From sequence record PQ850623.1: DNA of 64,000 nt; one strand, written 5' to 3'. The translations under genes were made by a program, and so were the position numbers. Numbering within the stretch: position 1 is the first letter of the stretch; each line of letters starts with the position of its first letter. This document shows positions 54,837 through 61,678 of the stretch, in pieces. This DNA is from Escherichia phage RudolfBernhard_Bas96. The notes below the pieces were generated by a model that worked only from the letters and a program-made list of their open reading frames with translations, had not been told where the DNA came from and made no database searches.

Positions 54837-56054
54837 TTAACTTAATGCATAGTCTGTTTCAAGAATGTCCTGCCAGAGGCTGTCATCCAGCTTACCAGCG
54901 GAGAACTCTTGTCCCAGTACCTGAGACAGGATGAAGCCCAGCAGGTCACTCTTAGCAATGTCAGACAGAATCTGATTGTACTGACGACGCAAGTCATTGC
55001 CATAGTTAGGGTGGCAACGGAAGCAGTCATGTACAGTCATTACAGGGAATGGTTTCTTAGGCATGGTATTGAGCGTAGCCATGATTACATCTGTATCAAC
55101 CAATGCAATCGTTACTGAGTCCAGATAATCAAAGATACGGGTAGACAGGAATCCCGACTTCTCATAGTTAGTCCACAGTGTGTTAACCATTTCATAGTTA
55201 TCATTGGAGCCAACCATGTAATCACTGGTTCCTTCGCAGAGGGACTTAATATAGTTCACCTGGTTCATGCTGAAGTTACAACGACGTAGCATCTCGCGTA
55301 CCACCATCCCATCAATAGAGTGGGTGATGTTAGCAGATAGCATACGGGTCTTTTCTTCAGTACCCTGAACCATACGAGTGATATCGAATGGTTTACCTAA
55401 GAAGTTAACAGTCTGTACTTCAGGAACCATGACCTTAATGACAGCGTGGAAGTTGTCAGGCAGTACCCATACGTAACGGTTAGCATCCGGGTTGCCACAT
55501 TGCAGTAAGAACTTGTTCAGTGCCCAAGGACCACTAGCAACAGTTTTCATTACATTCTCAAAAGTCTTGATACGGATACCTTCACCGAATACTTCTTTCG
55601 GCTTAGCTTCTGAACCATAGAATGCAGTCATAACTGCCTGCTTAGTATCACTACGTTTAATACGAGATGCTTCTCCAAGGATGTCCAGCATCTTGTGGTA
55701 GATAACTGTGTAAGCATCACGACGTAATGGCTTACCATTCTCTCCCATGTAGTTAACTACGTTACACAGTTCAGCAGCAGAACGGTCACCAGTCAGGCAA
55801 GCCAGTAACTGTAAGCCAGATGATGTAGCATCCAGAGCTACGGCATAACCGATAGGCTTACCGGCTTTCATATCTTTCCATGCGTTTACACCAGCGTAGA
55901 ACAGCGCAGATTCTTCAGCTTCATCTACCAGATTGAACAGGTTAGCTTCATTCTCGTCGAACCAGCTAATACGTTCATCCCATGTCTTCTTATCCAGACC
56001 GTAAGAGTTCGCAATATCAATTTTTAAATACTCTTTAGCTGTGAAAATCTGCAT
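54837..56054 (-). CDS. N4-type RNA polymerase II large (catalytic) subunit, T7-like
   Basis: 405 aa; T7 RNAP motif A-like DATSSGLQLLACL, motif B KQAVMTAFYGS, motif C VHDCF. Confidence 0.75.
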   Translation of the reverse strand: MQIFTAKEYLKIDIANSYGLDKKTWDERISWFDENEANLFNLVDEAEESALFYAGVNAWKDMKAGKPIGYAVALDATSSGLQLLACLTGDRSAAELCNVVNYMGENGKPLRRDAYTVIYHKMLDILGEASRIKRSDTKQAVMTAFYGSEAKPKEVFGEGIRIKTFENVMKTVASGPWALNKFLLQCGNPDANRYVWVLPDNFHAVIKVMVPEVQTVNFLGKPFDITRMVQGTEEKTRMLSANITHSIDGMVVREMLRRCNFSMNQVNYIKSLCEGTSDYMVGSNDNYEMVNTLWTNYEKSGFLSTRIFDYLDSVTIALVDTDVIMATLNTMPKKPFPVMTVHDCFRCHPNYGNDLRRQYNQILSDIAKSDLLGFILSQVLGQEFSAGKLDDSLWQDILETDYALS

Positions 56055-56055
56055 C

Positions 56056-56637
56056 TTAGGCTCCTAGTTTCCACTTATATCCGTATACTTGTGCATACGT
56101 ACCATTAATTACTTGATTAATATTAGAAGGTATACCATTAACACTTCGTGCAGCAGCACTAAGTGAATGGAACGTCTTAATGTATTCGCCATCTAGTGAG
56201 TACTGCTCAACAGGCTTAGCTGATTTAGTATTGATGCCATTAATTGCATCAGAGTAGTACCTCTTTACGTTGGTATTAGCTGTAACAATACGAATGTTAT
56301 CCAAGGAATAACCTTTGTAATCATCCAACCTGTCTAAGCTAGGCTTCAAGGCAGTTGGATAATCTTCTAATACCCACTTGTCATACAATGTGTGAAATTC
56401 TTTGTTTGAATATACCCATTTCTTTAGCTCCTCCTTAGTGAAGGACACAGGAGTAAATCCTTTCTTCTTGGTTCTACTAATAGAATTGGAGTACATTTGA
56501 TTAATGACCCCATGTTTTGAACGGGTAAAGCGTTTAAGGCAGTCTTTACAGTCTGCCCTTACACCTTGTTTGCCAGTGGACTGTTTATTGAACATGTCCA
56601 GAGGCAAGTTCTTCTTACATACTGAACATGTCTTCAT
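56056..56637 (-). CDS. Homing-endonuclease-like protein inserted between RNAPII subunit genes
   Basis: 193 aa; N-terminal Cys cluster CSVCKK...CKDC, central YSLDNIRIV, C-terminal repeated DNA-binding-like modules; sits exactly between the two RNAPII genes. Confidence 0.4.
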   Translation of the reverse strand: MKTCSVCKKNLPLDMFNKQSTGKQGVRADCKDCLKRFTRSKHGVINQMYSNSISRTKKKGFTPVSFTKEELKKWVYSNKEFHTLYDKWVLEDYPTALKPSLDRLDDYKGYSLDNIRIVTANTNVKRYYSDAINGINTKSAKPVEQYSLDGEYIKTFHSLSAAARSVNGIPSNINQVINGTYAQVYGYKWKLGA

Positions 56638-56638
56638 A

Positions 56639-57457
56639 CTAATCCTCGTTTACTAGTTCTTTATCTGCAAATTCAATCACTGCCTTGTTGTAGGATGTCC
56701 CTTGAAAATTAATATGGTATCCACAGGCATAGGTTCTGCCCCTCTTGTCATACTTATGCGCTAGTGAGAAGTTATTGCCTTCCTGAGTCACTAATTCCAT
56801 TACTTCTTTAGCAGTACGACTGTACTTCTCAAAGGCTTTAACTCGTTTCTCATAGTCCTGACGGGTTTCACCCTCTTTGGGTTTATCCATATTAGGACGA
56901 GAGTCTTTTACATAGTTAGCAACGTCCCAGTTAATACAGAGGCGTTGGTTGTTCATACGGTTGATGTGGTCAAGGCAGACGTCCATCTCATGATGGTTCT
57001 TCTTGAGGATGATGCTTCCTTTAGTCTGGTAGTAACCAGTATCCCTGTTAGTTCTGACGGGATTGGGAGCACTTACTATAGGTAATGGATACTGGAATGC
57101 TTCCAGTTCCATCTGAACATCTTCACTAATCTCATAGATAACACCGAACTTGTCGATGGTAGGGTCATAGTTGAAGCAGTCATTCTCTGCCATCTTATGC
57201 AGACAGTCAGCGATGTACTGAGCATCATCTGAGTGACTCATGAGAGAGCCAATCATAGTCTGGATGTCAGCACGTTTATGTAGGGCAATCTGCACCATTG
57301 CATCAATGAGCAGCTTATAATCAATATCTAAATAGGCAGCGAATGCCTTAAAGTCAATTTCTTTGGAGTCCTCGAATTCCTTCCTCATGCGAGGCAGTAA
57401 TTGATTTTTATTGAATAGGACTTCAAGCTGCTTCTGATGTTCAATAGATGAGTACAT
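56639..57457 (-). CDS. N4-type RNA polymerase II small (N-terminal) subunit
   Basis: 272 aa; GGAGA RBS; assignment by adjacency to the catalytic subunit and N4 gp15/gp16 arrangement. Confidence 0.5.
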   Translation of the reverse strand: MYSSIEHQKQLEVLFNKNQLLPRMRKEFEDSKEIDFKAFAAYLDIDYKLLIDAMVQIALHKRADIQTMIGSLMSHSDDAQYIADCLHKMAENDCFNYDPTIDKFGVIYEISEDVQMELEAFQYPLPIVSAPNPVRTNRDTGYYQTKGSIILKKNHHEMDVCLDHINRMNNQRLCINWDVANYVKDSRPNMDKPKEGETRQDYEKRVKAFEKYSRTAKEVMELVTQEGNNFSLAHKYDKRGRTYACGYHINFQGTSYNKAVIEFADKELVNED

Positions 57458-57488: not shown

Positions 57489-57501
57489 GGTGCGGAGCAC
57501 C
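57489..57501 (-). promoter_or_regulatory. Candidate vRNAP early-promoter hairpin GGTGC-GGA-GCACC
   Basis: Perfect 5-bp inverted repeat around a GGA triloop on the template (+) strand, 38 nt upstream of the RNAPII small-subunit start. Confidence 0.5.
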
Positions 57502-57505
57502 CTTC

Positions 57506-57856
57506 TTATGACCAGTAGTTGTAAGCATCACCTAAGTGTTTACGCCATGCTTCAGGTAACAGTACATTGCCAGTAACATTATTGAACAGGTATGGGTCCA
57601 GAAAGTCATCTCCCATTACTTTGAAATCCCACTGTGGATTAGTAGATGCATAGGAAATAAAGCCTTCAACGAAGCCATAGATAGCACCCTCTTTAATTCG
57701 GTTACCATTGCCATCCCTTACTGGAATGGCAAAGCTATTACCATAATGACCGTAGGCCATACCCCAACGTGCACCGTGCTTCTTATAGGCTAACTTGGCA
57801 GCAGCATTGGTATGCTGACCTAATGTGTTAGTAGTGAATACGAAGATTTCTTTCAT
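57506..57856 (-). CDS. Hypothetical early protein with Gly-rich Rossmann-like N-terminus
   Basis: 116 aa; IFVFTTNTLGQHTNAAAKLA...GNSFAIP pattern. Confidence 0.45.
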   Translation of the reverse strand: MKEIFVFTTNTLGQHTNAAAKLAYKKHGARWGMAYGHYGNSFAIPVRDGNGNRIKEGAIYGFVEGFISYASTNPQWDFKVMGDDFLDPYLFNNVTGNVLLPEAWRKHLGDAYNYWS

Positions 57857-57859
57857 TAG

Positions 57860-58240
57860 TTACCCTTTTGGATTTTCTACAAAATAGTTATACATAGCCC
57901 GAACGAGCTTCTCTTTAATAACCTCACCATGACATGGTTTCGGATAACAGAAGCATTGTAAGGCTAGGCCTTTTTCATCAATGGCTTTATTACCAAGACG
58001 ATTGAGTTCATCCAGTACAACTGGATTACCTTTATCAATCTGTTCTTGCAGCCAGACTTTATACTTAGCAATTACTTGCTCTCTGGTTCCATGCTTACCA
58101 ATGACGAATGGATTGCCTAACGGTGAGCCACGACCAATGTACTCACCGTATTTACCGTGATGTTTATTAACAATGATAATCGGACGTGCGGATATACCCA
58201 ACAGAGCATTGGTGTTATCACCTAATGAGATAGTTTTCAT
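57860..58240 (-). CDS. DUF4326-like protein
   Basis: 126 aa; GNPF motif and LQCFCYPKPCHG Cys/His motif as I recall DUF4326. Confidence 0.4.
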   Translation of the reverse strand: MKTISLGDNTNALLGISARPIIIVNKHHGKYGEYIGRGSPLGNPFVIGKHGTREQVIAKYKVWLQEQIDKGNPVVLDELNRLGNKAIDEKGLALQCFCYPKPCHGEVIKEKLVRAMYNYFVENPKG

Positions 58241-58551
58241 GGTTTAAGTACCTGAAATGCGAATACAGGGCGTTTACTACGCCATTGATTCATAGCCAGT
58301 TCACTGGCAGGAGAGCCATCATGTAAGTCATATATGAATGTAATCATATACTCTGGTTTCTCTGGGAAGTTCTCTGTAGAGAATGGTAGACCTGCTTCCT
58401 TTAATACAGGAACCAGTGGTGATTTGGCTTCACAGTAAATAGTGAACTCTTCATTGAATGCTTTACTAGTCTGAGATACATAATCAATATTACGCATCAT
58501 CTTATCGACATCAGTAAATGTATTATCATGTACTACTACAATGTTATTCAC
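58237..58551 (-). CDS. Hypothetical early protein
   Basis: 104 aa; ATGA overlap with both neighbours. Confidence 0.45.
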   Translation of the reverse strand: MNNIVVVHDNTFTDVDKMMRNIDYVSQTSKAFNEEFTIYCEAKSPLVPVLKEAGLPFSTENFPEKPEYMITFIYDLHDGSPASELAMNQWRSKRPVFAFQVLKP

Positions 58552-58805
58552 TCTACTTTCTCCAGGGTTAGGTATACTGTATTTGGTTGAGGTACATAGT
58601 CACAAAAACCAATTTCCTCTTGTCTGCCACTAGACTTCCAAATACAGTTTTCGGTTAGCTTAGGCTTTCTACTAAATCCAATTAGTGAGGCATTCTTACT
58701 CTTCTGGGGACGAGGTAATAAGGCTACATATTTAACCCATAATGGGACTTCAATAGTTTGCCCCATATAGTTAAATGATTTAGTTACAGGGAATGTAATA
58801 ATCAC
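58548..58805 (-). CDS. Hypothetical early protein
   Basis: 85 aa; ATGA overlaps. Confidence 0.45.
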   Translation of the reverse strand: MIITFPVTKSFNYMGQTIEVPLWVKYVALLPRPQKSKNASLIGFSRKPKLTENCIWKSSGRQEEIGFCDYVPQPNTVYLTLEKVE

Positions 58806-59023
58806 TTTTGGTATCCTTGTATATAGTTAATACGGCGAATACGCTGAGTAGATGCCTTAACAGCCATCTGCTGATTCTCTTCTTTATGCTGATTCTTTAA
58901 CAACTTATCCCATTCTTCCTGGTTCCGTTGTTTCTGCAATATACGACTACAACGCTTATGATTGGCAACTCCACGTCCTTTCTTACAGACTGGGCAGATA
59001 CCATAATCGCTCGTGTACATCAT
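58802..59023 (-). CDS. Small Cys-containing basic protein
   Basis: 73 aa; CPVCKK...HKRC; Lys/Arg/Gln-rich C-terminus. Confidence 0.4.
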   Translation of the reverse strand: MMYTSDYGICPVCKKGRGVANHKRCSRILQKQRNQEEWDKLLKNQHKEENQQMAVKASTQRIRRINYIQGYQK

Positions 59024-59328
59024 TGGCTTAAAGCCTCCATTAATATTTTACGAATAACGTTAACATCAGATTCAGTACCAATTAAACCAACAGGTTTCTT
59101 TGTACTATCTGTGACAAAGGATGCAATCCTTTCCATCTCTGCTGTAATTAATTTGTCACCACTAATAAGACGATTACGAAGGTAGGCTTCATAAGCTACT
59201 TCTATATCCTCTACTGTGGTTCTTTCATTACGAGTGAATGGATTACTTAATGGGAAGGGTAAATGTATCCGTATATTCCTGTCAGCTACCTTAGCTAAGT
59301 GAGGAAGTATACATACTATTTCATTCAA
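59020..59328 (-). CDS. Hypothetical early protein, weakly DUF4326-like
   Basis: 102 aa; PLSNPF...VAYEAYLRNRL parallels the GNPF...KYKVWL block of 57860-58240 but lacks the Cys/His motif. Confidence 0.4.
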   Translation of the reverse strand: MNEIVCILPHLAKVADRNIRIHLPFPLSNPFTRNERTTVEDIEVAYEAYLRNRLISGDKLITAEMERIASFVTDSTKKPVGLIGTESDVNVIRKILMEALSQ

Positions 59329-59365: not shown

Positions 59366-59403
59366 AAAAATAAAAAATAGGAGCCTCCTATTGGAGGACT
59401 CCT
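59366..59403 (-). terminator. Rho-independent terminator
   Basis: Imperfect stem AGGAGCCTCC/GGAGGACTCCT; ATTTTTTATTTTT on the - strand. Confidence 0.6.
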
Positions 59404-59405
59404 TA

Positions 59406-59534
59406 CTATTTAATACATGGGTGATTGAAGGTAACAATCTTACGTACTGGTTCAGATGCCTGTTTCTTAGCAGCCAGACGTTCTTTCATCTTCTGTACGT
59501 CAGATTTATTACCTAAAATAAGTGATTTACGCAT
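59406..59534 (-). CDS. Small basic ORF (42 aa), unannotated in the ORF track
   Basis: ATG at 59534 with AAGGA RBS 9 nt upstream; Lys-rich product MRKSLILGNKSDVQKMKERLAAKK...; ends right at the terminator hairpin. Confidence 0.25.
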   Translation of the reverse strand: MRKSLILGNKSDVQKMKERLAAKKQASEPVRKIVTFNHPCIK

Positions 59535-59538
59535 TATA

Positions 59539-60012
59539 TTAATCCTTACCATGATTAGAGTGGAAACCATATTCATTGTTAGCTAACTCTCTAGCTTCTA
59601 CAGCTTCGTCGAAAGTGTTGAATCTACCTAAATGCTTTAGCTTACCATTAATCTTTATACGAACTCTCCATTTACCAGCTTCATATCTTACTCCCGTTGC
59701 ACCCGACATATTATTAGAAGCTCTACTTCTATTACGATTGTTATCTTGGGAAGATACTGCCCTTAGGTTTTCTAAACGGTCATCTGTTCGTATGTGATTG
59801 ATATGGTCAACCATATAACCGTCAGGCAATTTACCGTTGTGCATTTCCCAGATTATAGTAGCTGCCTTAAGATGTCGGTATTTTACTTGGACATATACAT
59901 ATCCACTGTACGTGTCGAAACTTCCAGCAATATCCCCACTTTTAGCTCTGCCACTACTAACCTTCCAGTAGAGTTTGCCTTCACGGTAGGAGAAGAATTC
60001 ATGCCAGTCCAT
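59539..60012 (-). CDS. HNH homing endonuclease with AP2 domain
   Basis: 157 aa; HNH core VDHINHIRTDDRLENLR; AP2-like GVRYEAGKWRVRIKINGKLKHLGRFNTFDEAVEAR. Confidence 0.7.
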   Translation of the reverse strand: MDWHEFFSYREGKLYWKVSSGRAKSGDIAGSFDTYSGYVYVQVKYRHLKAATIIWEMHNGKLPDGYMVDHINHIRTDDRLENLRAVSSQDNNRNRSRASNNMSGATGVRYEAGKWRVRIKINGKLKHLGRFNTFDEAVEARELANNEYGFHSNHGKD

Positions 60013-60919: not shown

Positions 60920-61030
60920 TTTGTACTCTCCAGATTGATAAATGTTTGATTTATGGGTTTGTCCGTCGGTGACTAAACCCAAGAAAAGACTTAGGATTTC
61001 GATAAGAAGTGGATTCATTCTTATCCTTTA

Positions 61031-61043
61031 GACGCGGAGCGTC
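61031..61043 (-). promoter_or_regulatory. Candidate vRNAP early-promoter hairpin GACGC-GGA-GCGTC
   Basis: Perfect 5-bp inverted repeat around GGA on the template strand, between a terminator hairpin and the next early gene; preceded by ATCCTTTA. Confidence 0.5.
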
Positions 61044-61102
61044 TTGGTTTTTAGAAGTAGAAGTAAAGTAGATAAATATCTACTTTTGACTATCTATCTA
61101 AT

Positions 61103-61463: not shown

Positions 61464-61506
61464 GATGATAGCTCCAATAGTTGATGATAGGACGACATGT
61501 CCATAA

Positions 61507-61519
61507 CATGCGGAGCATG
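61507..61519 (-). promoter_or_regulatory. Candidate vRNAP early-promoter hairpin CATGC-GGA-GCATG
   Basis: Perfect 5-bp inverted repeat around GGA in a 215-bp noncoding G-rich gap; preceded by TCCATAA. Confidence 0.5.
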
Positions 61520-61678
61520 TGTAACGTGTAAGGTGGGGTAGGGTAGTGGCTACAGGGTCAACATACCGGGGGGGCTAGTTGAGTGTAAGGGTGTAGCCCC
61601 AGCCACACCACTGTAGCCATACATAGCTATCACAATTTTGACATGCAAAAATATTATAACTATCCCACTTATAAGCAG

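What the first reader, a model, noticed from the sequence alone, without database searches (positions are those of the whole stretch)
57506..59328. Translationally coupled early operon with two DUF4326-like proteins
Six small genes with ATGA-type overlaps (59020-59328 through 57506-57856). ORF 57860-58240 has the GNPF and L-C-x-C...CHG motifs I associate with DUF4326, and 59020-59328 carries a degenerate copy of the N-terminal block. ORF 57506-57856 has a Gly-rich Rossmann-like N-terminus. This is a candidate nucleotide- or signal-modifying host-takeover module.
Basis: partly seen in the sequence, partly recalled or inferred. Interest (0 to 1): 0.5.

Follow-up and report, generated by a model that had tools for sequence, protein, structure and literature searches.

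The report
N4-like phage early ADP-ribose-related cassette
This is the conserved early-gene cassette of an N4-like coliphage (homologues of N4 gp9 to gp14): it encodes one intact DUF4326 enzyme, a degenerate copy of it and a degenerate macro-domain protein, so it is probably a counter-defence module acting on ADP-ribose-type molecules, and it has never been tested.

Summary
Six conserved minus-strand genes (59328 to 57506) are joined by four 4-nt start/stop overlaps (two ATGA, two GTGA) and one 3-nt spacer. The window is a G7C-like N4-like phage, and the genes are G7C gp9, gp9.1, gp9.2, gp11, gp12 and gp14.

- **gp12** is a bona fide DUF4326 protein (Pfam E=2.5e-22) with every invariant residue intact.
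- **gp9** is a true but degenerate paralogue. It keeps 1 of the 10 invariant residues and has lost all three Cys and the His.

Independent fusion proteins join DUF4326, this macro-like domain and a YAcAr SLOG domain. A sister phage carries a SLOG gene in the same cassette.

The best reading is an early counter-defence module aimed at ADP-ribose adducts or NAD-derived signals. That link was already predicted computationally by Iyer, Burroughs and Aravind, and no experiment exists. The new points are that two of the three recognisable proteins look like pseudoenzymes and that all six genes are under purifying selection (dN/dS 0.04-0.28, one zero-dN pair aside).

Verdict: new member of a known kind, moderate interest.

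The parts
59020..59328 (-). gp9 homologue (102 aa, TTG start). A degenerate DUF4326 paralogue that lacks the Y-x-G-R and C-x-C-x4-C-H residues.
   Evidence: Pfam 15.5 bits, below the gathering score; PHROG 464, 1.2e-15; keeps only N43 of the 10 invariant residues; found in 94 phage records, all enterobacterial N4-likes; dN/dS 0.04-0.14.
58802..59023 (-). gp9.1 homologue (73 aa). A small basic protein with a C-x2-C...H-x2-C pattern; function unknown.
   Evidence: PHROG 6887, 1.1e-41; dN/dS 0.06-0.20. The Cys/His pattern is read directly from the sequence.
58548..58805 (-). gp9.2 homologue (85 aa, GTG start); function unknown.
   Evidence: (PHROG 1972, 2.1e-18).
58237..58551 (-). gp11 homologue (104 aa, GTG start; N4 gp11 family); function unknown.
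   Evidence: PHROG 7827, 8e-57; 72% identical to N4 gp11, dN/dS 0.16; no related solved structure.
57860..58240 (-). gp12 homologue (126 aa). An intact DUF4326 domain protein and the only predicted active enzyme of the block.
57506..57856 (-). gp14 homologue (116 aa). A degenerate macro-like protein of the A1S_2505 family: K47 is R and the IGCGLAG loop is deleted.
59366..59402 (-). Terminator-like hairpin with a T-run directly upstream of gp9. No promoter hairpin lies between it and gp9.
57489..57501 (+). Template-strand hairpin GGTGC-GGA-GCACC between gp14 and the RNAP1B gene. It resembles an N4 virion-RNA-polymerase early promoter and marks the downstream edge of the block.
   Evidence: aligns with the N4 site upstream of gp15.
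61030..61044 (+). Template-strand hairpin AGACGC-GGA-GCGTCT upstream of the gp2 homologue. It is the nearest upstream early-promoter-like site from which the block could be transcribed.
   Evidence: aligns with the N4 site upstream of gp2.
61506..61520 (+). Template-strand hairpin ACATGC-GGA-GCATGT upstream of the gp1 homologue (early-promoter-like).

Best explanation
**Shown.** The block is the early accessory cassette of a G7C-like (Gamaleyavirus) N4-like coliphage and is homologous to N4 gp9-gp14. It lies in the region flanked by N4-type virion-RNA-polymerase promoter hairpins. It has no such hairpin of its own.

It holds three recognisable proteins:
- gp12 is an intact DUF4326 domain. It has a strand, Cys-rich loop, helix arrangement and its fold is nearest to the sugar-phosphate-binding C-terminal domain of RapZ.
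- gp9 is a paralogue of gp12 that has lost the conserved Cys, His and Arg residues.
- gp14 is a macro-fold protein of the TARG1/DarG/Poa1p type. In this phage it has lost the family's conserved Lys and its second Gly-rich loop.

**Inferred.**
- Transcription presumably comes from the upstream P1/P2-like promoters, by read-through of weak terminators.
- The cassette is a counter-defence module directed at the host's NAD+/ADP-ribose-based immunity.
- gp12 would process a phosphoribosyl or ADP-ribose-derived substrate, either a soluble messenger or toxin, or a remnant of an ADP-ribosyl adduct on nucleic acid.
- The degenerate gp9 and gp14 would act without catalysis, as binders, decoys or partners of gp12.
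- gp9.1, gp9.2 and gp11 are small early proteins with no assignable function.
For: - **Identity and synteny.** 94% nucleotide identity to G7C and the same gene order as N4 gp9, gp11, gp12, gp14.
- **Families.**
- **Independent fusions link the domains.** P0179 is DUF4326 + gp14-type domain + YAcAr SLOG. P0193 is gp14-type domain + DUF4326, in the opposite order. P0224 and P0229 are gp14-type domain + YAcAr.
- **SLOG in the same cassette.** Sister phage 24-32N carries a YAcAr SLOG gene there (E=2e-10). DUF4326 lies next to SLOG genes in non-N4-like viral contigs.
- **Link to ADP-ribosyltransferases.** The gp14-type fold occurs inside crAss-like phage giant proteins, one of them named 'ART-PolyVal-like domain-containing protein'.
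[quoted passage not shown] The anti-Avs SLOG protein ORF83 has amoeba-virus homologues with a C-terminal DUF4326 (10.1101/2025.06.06.658234). The T4 macro protein Tk.4/AdfM counters DarTG2 (10.1101/2025.11.20.689424). ICP1 AdfB is proposed to counter DarT through direct interaction (PMC11481870).
- **Selection.** All six genes are under purifying selection.
Against: - No protein of these families from any N4-like phage has been tested, and DUF4326 has no known biochemistry.
- The invariant C-x-C-x4-C-H motif could be a structural zinc site rather than a catalytic loop.
- gp14 lacks what look like the key macro-domain ligand and catalytic elements, so it may not touch ADP-ribose at all.
- Gene-neighbourhood co-occurrence of DUF4326 with the macro-like gene is almost confined to N4-like contigs (23 of 80 and 18 of 80 loci). 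It is therefore largely one inherited arrangement. Only the fusions are independent evidence.
- DUF4326 also sits beside or inside replication genes: T4 nrdA.1, and DNA polymerases of several phages.
Confidence: 0.5

Rival explanations
1. Specific anti-DarTG module. The cassette protects replicating phage DNA from ADP-ribosylation by DarT-type toxins. The macro-like protein would bind or remove the adduct, or bind the toxin. DUF4326 would clear the remaining phosphoribosyl group.
For: - The T4 macro protein Tk.4/AdfM was shown to counter DarTG2 (10.1101/2025.11.20.689424), and Tk.4 falls in the same TARG1/BT1257/Poa1p/DarG group by sequence.
- DUF4326 is found within or beside DNA polymerase genes in several phages, and fusions to replication components are reported (PMC7824862).
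- Neutralisation of DarT through direct interaction, rather than enzymatic reversal, has been proposed for AdfB (PMC11481870).
Against: - The window's gp14 lacks the Lys that aligns by motif with the TARG1/DarG catalytic Lys, and lacks the IGCGLAG loop.
- It shows no sequence-level similarity to DarG or AdfM.
- There are no data on DarTG sensitivity of N4-like phages.
Confidence: 0.2
2. Nucleotide-metabolism, DNA-replication or DNA-modification helper unrelated to ADP-ribose. gp12 would be a zinc-binding (CxCx4CH) accessory factor for nucleotide or DNA transactions, and its neighbours would be unrelated early proteins.
For: - DUF4326 homologues are T4 nrdA.1, next to ribonucleotide reductase genes.
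- They lie within or beside DNA polymerase genes in Vibrio phage 24, Ralstonia RsoM3USA and Sphingobium Lacusarx.
- Three invariant Cys plus one His are typical of zinc sites.
- gp12 is far more conserved than the RNA polymerase subunit gene two genes downstream, next after gp14: 94% against 65% identity to N4. That fits a core-machinery partner.
Against: - The repeated, order-independent fusions to a macro-like domain and to SLOG domains are not explained.
- Nor is the SLOG gene inserted into the same cassette in sister phages.
- The gene lies in the variable early accessory region, not in the replication module.
Confidence: 0.2
3. No functional module. The six genes would be independent small early 'host-acquisition' genes kept together only by operon inheritance. 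The degenerate gp9 and gp14 would be decaying relics or would have unrelated new functions.
For: - Three of the six proteins have no detectable family beyond phage ORFan groups.
- The content between the conserved genes varies among relatives: gp11.1, the SLOG gene and others come and go.
- Neighbourhood association is mostly lineage-bound.
Against: - gp9 and gp14 are under clear purifying selection, dN/dS 0.04-0.22.
- gp9 is conserved from Escherichia to Klebsiella and Erwinia N4-likes.
- Fusion proteins tie DUF4326 to the gp14-type domain.
Confidence: 0.12
4. One reading: ORF 57506-57856 is a SLOG/LOG-type Rossmann nucleotide-processing enzyme that works with DUF4326.
For: - SLOG domains really are partners of DUF4326 (PMC9503650).
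- Some database records label a neighbouring gene in sister phages 'DprA'.
Against: - gp14 has no LOG, DprA or YAcAr HMM hit.
- In fusion proteins the gp14-type domain and the YAcAr SLOG domain occupy separate segments.
- No SLOG gene exists anywhere in the window.
Confidence: 0.03

Closest known systems
Phage N4 gp9, gp11, gp12 and gp14 (early region) and their G7C orthologues
   Same: Same gene order, same position between the gp2 and gp15 (RNAP1) genes, and the same promoter-like hairpins. Protein identity to N4 is 74% (gp9), 72% (gp11), 94% (gp12) and 51% (gp14).
   Different: - The window and G7C have gp9.1 and gp9.2 where N4 has gp10.
- The window lacks G7C gp11.1 and N4 gp13.
- The window's gp14 is the loop-deleted 116-aa allele. 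N4 gp14 keeps IPTK and GCGLAG.
Pfam DUF4326 (PF14216), including T4 NrdA.1. [quoted passage not shown]
   Same: gp12 scores far above the gathering threshold and has every invariant residue: Y-x-G-R, G-N-P and C-x-C-x4-C-H-G. Homologues occur in 1889 phage records.
TARG1/OARD1, DarG, Poa1p and BT1257-type macro domains, and the phage anti-DarT macro protein T4 Tk.4 (AdfM)
   Same: - The wider A1S_2505 family shares loop-1 (GSN-x-AG-x-HG-x-GAA), 'IPTK' and 'RIGCGLAG' motifs. These resemble TARG1 'CIS-x-D-x-x-MGAGIA', 'LITK' and 'PRIGCGL'.
   Different: - The family lacks the two N-terminal strands of canonical macros.
- It is not detected by Pfam Macro models.
- The window's gp14 has R for the Lys, substitutions at four loop-1 Gly/Ser positions, and no second loop.
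- It has no detectable sequence similarity to Tk.4.
Viral ADP-ribose-derivative processing systems that combine SLOG, Macro, NADAR, Nudix and DUF4326 (Iyer, Burroughs, Aravind; PMC9503650, PMC7824862)
   Same: The same domain combination appears. DUF4326 and a macro-like domain are neighbours here. DUF4326 + macro-like + YAcAr SLOG are fused in P0179. SLOG is present in sister phages. The genes are encoded among early genes.
   Different: Those papers stress jumbo phages, myoviruses and giant viruses. This is a 72-kb podovirus. Two of the three proteins are degenerate, and there is no NADAR or Nudix partner.
RapZ C-terminal domain (PDB 5o5s)
   Different: Only 10% identity. RapZ lacks the C-x-C-x4-C-H motif, and homology is not established.

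Membership tests
Pfam DUF4326 (gp12, 57860-58240) | Score above the Pfam gathering threshold over the whole domain | tested here: met
   79.8 bits against 25; profile positions 4-82 of 82.
Pfam DUF4326 (gp12, 57860-58240) | Invariant residues Y34, G36, R37, G42, N43, L94, C96, C98, C103, H104 | tested here: met
   All ten are present in gp12 and invariant in a 12-sequence alignment with 28-56% identity to gp12.
Pfam DUF4326 (gp12, 57860-58240) | Rhodanese/Cys-phosphatase-like fold, as claimed in PMC9503650 | tested here: inconclusive
   [not shown]
Pfam DUF4326 (gp12, 57860-58240) | Enzymatic activity on ribose-linked phosphates or ADP-ribose products | not testable with these tools
   Only a published prediction exists; no biochemistry is reported.
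Pfam DUF4326 (gp9, 59020-59328) | Score above the Pfam gathering threshold | tested here: not met
   15.5 bits against 25, E=0.027.
Pfam DUF4326 (gp9, 59020-59328) | Homology to family members over the full length | tested here: met
   PHROG 464, 1.2e-15 over residues 1-101. BLASTP against gp12, 5e-08. Iterative search from gp12 recovers N4 gp9 at 8e-33. A local DUF4326 profile gives 5e-05.
Pfam DUF4326 (gp9, 59020-59328) | Invariant Y-x-G-R and C-x-C-x4-C-H residues | tested here: not met
   Only N43 of the ten is retained. CFCYPKPCHG is replaced by LIGTESDVN.
Macro domain superfamily, TARG1/DarG/Poa1p class (gp14, 57506-57856) | Macro fold | tested here: met
   [not shown]
Macro domain superfamily, TARG1/DarG/Poa1p class (gp14, 57506-57856) | Match to Pfam Macro models | tested here: not met
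   No hit for gp14. Among 75 family members, one hit at E=0.18. A profile search of PDB sequences was also not significant.
Macro domain superfamily, TARG1/DarG/Poa1p class (gp14, 57506-57856) | Second Gly-rich (diphosphate/distal-ribose) loop, 'RIGCGL' in TARG1-type macros | tested here: not met
   The loop is deleted in the window, G7C and 24-32N. It is present in N4 and in 80 of the 83 locus homologues compared.
Macro domain superfamily, TARG1/DarG/Poa1p class (gp14, 57506-57856) | Catalytic Lys (TARG1 K84 / DarG K80 position) | tested here: not met
   The family motif IPTK reads IPVR here. Equating it with TARG1 K84 rests on motif comparison and my memory of the TARG1 sequence, not on a structural superposition that I could inspect.
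Macro domain superfamily, TARG1/DarG/Poa1p class (gp14, 57506-57856) | ADP-ribose binding or hydrolysis | not testable with these tools
   Needs binding and hydrolase assays.
NCBIfam NF049995, A1S_2505 family phage non-structural protein, N-terminal domain (gp14) | Score above the curated cut-off | tested here: met
   87.1 bits against 45, profile positions 1-109 of 109. There are 1341 representative proteins at E<=0.001.
   [not shown]
N4-type early transcription unit (virion RNA polymerase) | Template-strand hairpin promoter (5-7 bp stem, 3-nt loop) upstream, positionally conserved with N4 | tested here: met
   There are three sites with a GCGGAGC core, at 57489-57501, 61030-61044 and 61506-61520. 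They align with N4 sites upstream of gp15, gp2 and gp1. None lies directly upstream of gp9, where a terminator-like hairpin sits instead. Identifying the N4 sites as promoters P1-P3 rests on my own knowledge.
N4-type early transcription unit (virion RNA polymerase) | Early expression measured | not testable with these tools
   Needs time-resolved RNA-seq.

The most novel reading that the evidence does not exclude
The cassette may be a 'one enzyme plus two pseudoenzymes' system. The catalytically dead DUF4326 copy (gp9) and the loop-deleted macro protein (gp14) would be maintained by selection as non-catalytic sponges or decoys. They would sequester ADP-ribose-derived immune messengers, or bind and neutralise a host ADP-ribosyltransferase or immune sensor, while gp12 supplies the only chemistry.

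The swap between full and loop-deleted gp14 alleles within one phage genus would then reflect an arms race with different host systems.
Probability: 0.15. Interest if true: 0.65.

Novelty: new member of a known kind. Interest (0 to 1): 0.35.

Why it matters
N4-like phages are a classic model and are used in therapy cocktails, yet most of their early genes have no function assigned.

If the cassette is an ADP-ribose-directed counter-defence module, it would give the first experimental handle on DUF4326. That domain occurs in about 1900 sequenced phage genomes, including T4 (nrdA.1), and in giant viruses, and its chemistry is unknown.

The natural series of gp14 alleles is a ready-made comparison for asking whether such proteins act as enzymes or as binders. 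The series runs from the full macro-like form with Lys, to the Lys-less form, to the loop-deleted form.

As it stands, the finding mainly confirms and localises a link that has already been published as a computational prediction.

Tried and rejected
- **Sequence searches of solved structures** with gp12, gp14, gp11 and a gp14-family profile gave nothing significant.
- **Pfam, NCBIfam and PADLOC** gave no significant hit for gp9.1, gp9.2 or gp11, only sub-threshold matches for gp11. PADLOC gave nothing for any protein.
- **The SLOG/LOG assignment of gp14** was rejected.
- **Homologue searches for gp12.** The first and third searches returned almost only near-identical G7C-type gp12. The gp12 model therefore rests on a shallow alignment, and its fold matches should be read with care.
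- **hhalign of the gp14 family against T4 Tk.4 alone** was not significant. Against a three-sequence TARG1-type alignment it reached E=3e-4 but only 39% probability.
- **Foldseek against AFDB** was unavailable.
- **The follow-up Aravind-lab paper on the rhodanese-phosphatase superfamily**, which I recall, could not be found or read. Its content is not used.
- **Literature searches for experimental work** on N4 gp9, gp12 or gp14, or on T4 nrdA.1, found none.
- **Gene-neighbourhood co-occurrence** was computed but is down-weighted, because nearly all positive loci are N4-like contigs. In addition, the locus scans were seeded with the conserved motifs themselves.
- **The 3Cys+His geometry** (zinc site or not) could not be checked, because model coordinates are not exposed.
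Full report
**What the window is.** A 2.2-kb query around the finding matches 74 phage records, all N4-like phages of enterobacteria (Escherichia 65, Shigella 5, Gamaleyavirus 3, Klebsiella 1). The best is vB_EcoP_G7C at 94% nucleotide identity. In G7C the six ORFs are annotated with the same lengths as gp9, gp9.1, gp9.2, gp11, gp12 and gp14. The genes downstream are RNAP1 subunit B, an HNH homing endonuclease and RNAP2. N4 itself has gp9, gp10, gp11, gp12 (DUF4326), gp13 and gp14 in the same place.

**Check of the observation.**
- The six minus-strand ORFs are at the stated coordinates.
- The junctions read ATGA, GTGA, GTGA and ATGA, then TAA-cta-ATG. That makes four 4-nt overlaps and one 3-nt spacer.
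- Pairwise dN/dS of each gene against relatives is 0.04-0.28, apart from one pair with no non-synonymous change. All six are therefore real, constrained genes.
- gp12 carries PLGNPF and LQCFCYPKPCHG and scores 79.8 bits on Pfam DUF4326.

**gp9 is a full-length but degenerate paralogue of gp12.**
- Pfam alone is below threshold (15.5 bits).
- Both proteins hit PHROG 464, at 1.2e-15 and 1.4e-39.
- BLASTP between them gives 5e-08.
- An iterative search seeded with gp12 recovers gp9 homologues, including N4 gp9 at 8e-33.
- In a 12-sequence alignment with 28-56% identity to gp12, ten DUF4326 residues are invariant: Y34, G36, R37, G42, N43, L94, C96, C98, C103 and H104.
- gp9 keeps only N43. CFCYPKPCHG has become LIGTESDVN.
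- gp9 is confined to N4-likes of Escherichia, Shigella, Klebsiella and Erwinia (94 records). Its dN/dS is 0.04-0.14.
- Other N4-like lineages also carry Cys-less DUF4326 variants beside an intact one or beside the macro-like gene, for example L017 and L081.

**gp14 is a macro-fold protein, not SLOG.**
- It belongs to NCBIfam NF049995, 'A1S_2505 family phage non-structural protein' (9e-25).
- This is a large family with 1341 representatives at 50% clustering. Pfam does not cover it.
- With a 75-sequence alignment with 35-57% identity to gp14, AlphaFold2 gave pLDDT 94.6.
- In BFVD the model matches family members, domains inside crAss-like phage giant proteins (one named ART-PolyVal-like), and more weakly annotated phage Macro proteins.
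- The family consensus is FVFGSN-AG-HG-GAA ... SYAIPTKD ... F-VT-IGCGLAGY--IAPLF. It resembles the TARG1-type loop 1, 'LITK' and 'PRIGCGL' motifs.
- A profile-profile comparison with TARG1, T4 Tk.4 and BT1257 aligns the helix-strand-IGCGLAG segment at E=3e-4 and 39% probability.
- T4 Tk.4 sits in this macro class by sequence. It has been reported as AdfM, an anti-DarTG2 factor (10.1101/2025.11.20.689424).

**The window's gp14 is a degenerate member.**
- It keeps 27 of the 43 columns that are at least 90% conserved. The other 74 sequences keep at least 40.
- The losses sit in loop 1 (G8T, S9T, G16T, G18A), at IPTK (now IPVR), and in the IGCGLAG loop, which is deleted.
- N4 gp14 and the PhAPEC5-type Gamaleyavirus allele keep both motifs. 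G7C and the window have IPVR plus the deletion. 24-32N has IPVK plus the deletion. Some N4-like viral contigs (L004, L006, L008) have IPTL.
- Phages whose flanking gp12 and RNAP1B are 94-98% identical to the window carry a gp14 only 55% identical. The gene has therefore been swapped as an allele within the genus.
- The deleted allele is still constrained, with dN/dS 0.16-0.22.

**Evidence that the proteins work together.**
- Among representatives of the gp14 family, P0179 is DUF4326 (7-81) + gp14-type domain (91-203) + YAcAr SLOG (209-273).
- P0193 has the gp14-type domain first and DUF4326 second.
- P0224 and P0229 join the gp14-type domain to YAcAr.
- Sister phage 24-32N has a YAcAr SLOG gene (E=2e-10) inserted in the same cassette. 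Similar genes lie within 5 kb in 9 of 83 loci seeded on the gp14 family.
- DUF4326 abuts SLOG genes in non-N4-like viral contigs.
- Simple co-occurrence of DUF4326 and the macro-like gene (23 of 80 and 18 of 80 loci) is almost restricted to 70-78-kb N4-like contigs, so it counts as one inherited arrangement.
- These results reproduce what Iyer, Burroughs and Aravind described. [quoted passage not shown]
- The EVADES preprint notes that the SLOG-like anti-Avs protein ORF83 has amoeba-virus homologues with a C-terminal DUF4326 (10.1101/2025.06.06.658234).

**Transcription context.**
- All three GCGGAGC heptamers in the 64-kb window lie on the + strand, which is the template strand for these genes.
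- Each sits in an intergenic region and each is the centre of a 5-6-bp-stem, GGA-loop hairpin: 57489-57501, 61030-61044 and 61506-61520.
- They align with N4 sequences upstream of gp15, gp2 and gp1.
- The N4 gp2 site reads CATCCAAAAGAAGCGGAGCTTCTTC. I recognise this from my own knowledge as the N4 P2 early promoter used in virion RNA polymerase studies.
- The gp9-gp14 block lies between the second and third sites.
- Directly upstream of gp9 there is a terminator-like hairpin with a T-run (59366-59402) and no promoter hairpin.
- Expression therefore most likely depends on read-through from upstream early promoters. This is inference.

**Conclusion.**
- The structural observation is right.
It is wrong about the fold of the last gene.
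- The most likely function is counter-defence against NAD+/ADP-ribose-based immunity, with gp12 as the only plausibly active enzyme.
- The catalytic state of gp9 and gp14 argues that they act by binding. There is precedent in the ICP1 anti-DarT factor AdfB, proposed to act through direct interaction (PMC11481870).
- None of this has been tested. The genes are long-known 'hypothetical' N4 early genes, and the domain association has been published. I therefore rate it a new member of a known kind, with moderate interest.

Noticed in passing
57489-57501, 61030-61044, 61506-61520 (+ strand): Three template-strand hairpins (5-6 bp stem, GGA loop, core GCGGAGC) lie in intergenic regions upstream of the RNAP1B, gp2 and gp1 homologues. 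They align with the corresponding N4 sites and look like the three N4-type virion-RNA-polymerase early promoters.
   Followed up: partly
56056-56637 (- strand): A 193-aa endonuclease with a NUMOD1 domain, annotated HNH in G7C as ORF15.1, is inserted exactly between the genes for the two subunits of the middle RNA polymerase (56639-57457 and 54837-56054).
   Followed up: no
59539-60012 (- strand): A second homing-type endonuclease (HNH_3, with a sub-threshold AP2-like match; G7C gp2.1 homologue) lies upstream of the cassette. A 42-aa gp6 homologue at 59406-59534 lies between it and the terminator-like hairpin.
   Followed up: no
57860-58240 versus N4 (L003 3605-3973): gp12 is 94% identical in protein to N4 gp12 (dN 0.044, dS 0.76). 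The nearby RNA polymerase subunit gene (two genes downstream, next after gp14) is only 65% identical and its dS is saturated. gp9 is 74% and gp14 is 51% identical. This means either unusually strong constraint or a more recent exchange of this one gene.
   Followed up: partly
57506-57856 versus L007, L009, L011: Within Gamaleyavirus the gp14 gene exists as two alleles about 55% identical: a full macro-like form and a loop-deleted 116-aa form. The flanking genes are 94-98% identical. This is a cassette-like allele swap.
   Followed up: partly
L001 5728-6048 (Escherichia phage 24-32N, PV933157): The gp9 homologue, which has a TTG start, is not annotated as a gene in this GenBank record although it is 96% identical to the window's gp9.
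   Followed up: no
between 58237 and 58240 (gp11/gp12 junction): G7C has an extra 80-aa gene, gp11.1, between gp11 and gp12. It is absent from the window. 24-32N has several further small genes and a YAcAr SLOG gene in this block. The cassette is a hot spot of gene gain and loss.
   Followed up: partly
alignment A3 (gp14-family proteins from metagenomes): One gp14-family protein also matches Pfam Dmd (PF17587, the T4 antitoxin against RnlA) at E=1.2e-4. This would be a fusion of two counter-defence-type domains.
   Followed up: no
One DUF4326 domain sits inside a 2588-codon open reading frame.
   Followed up: no
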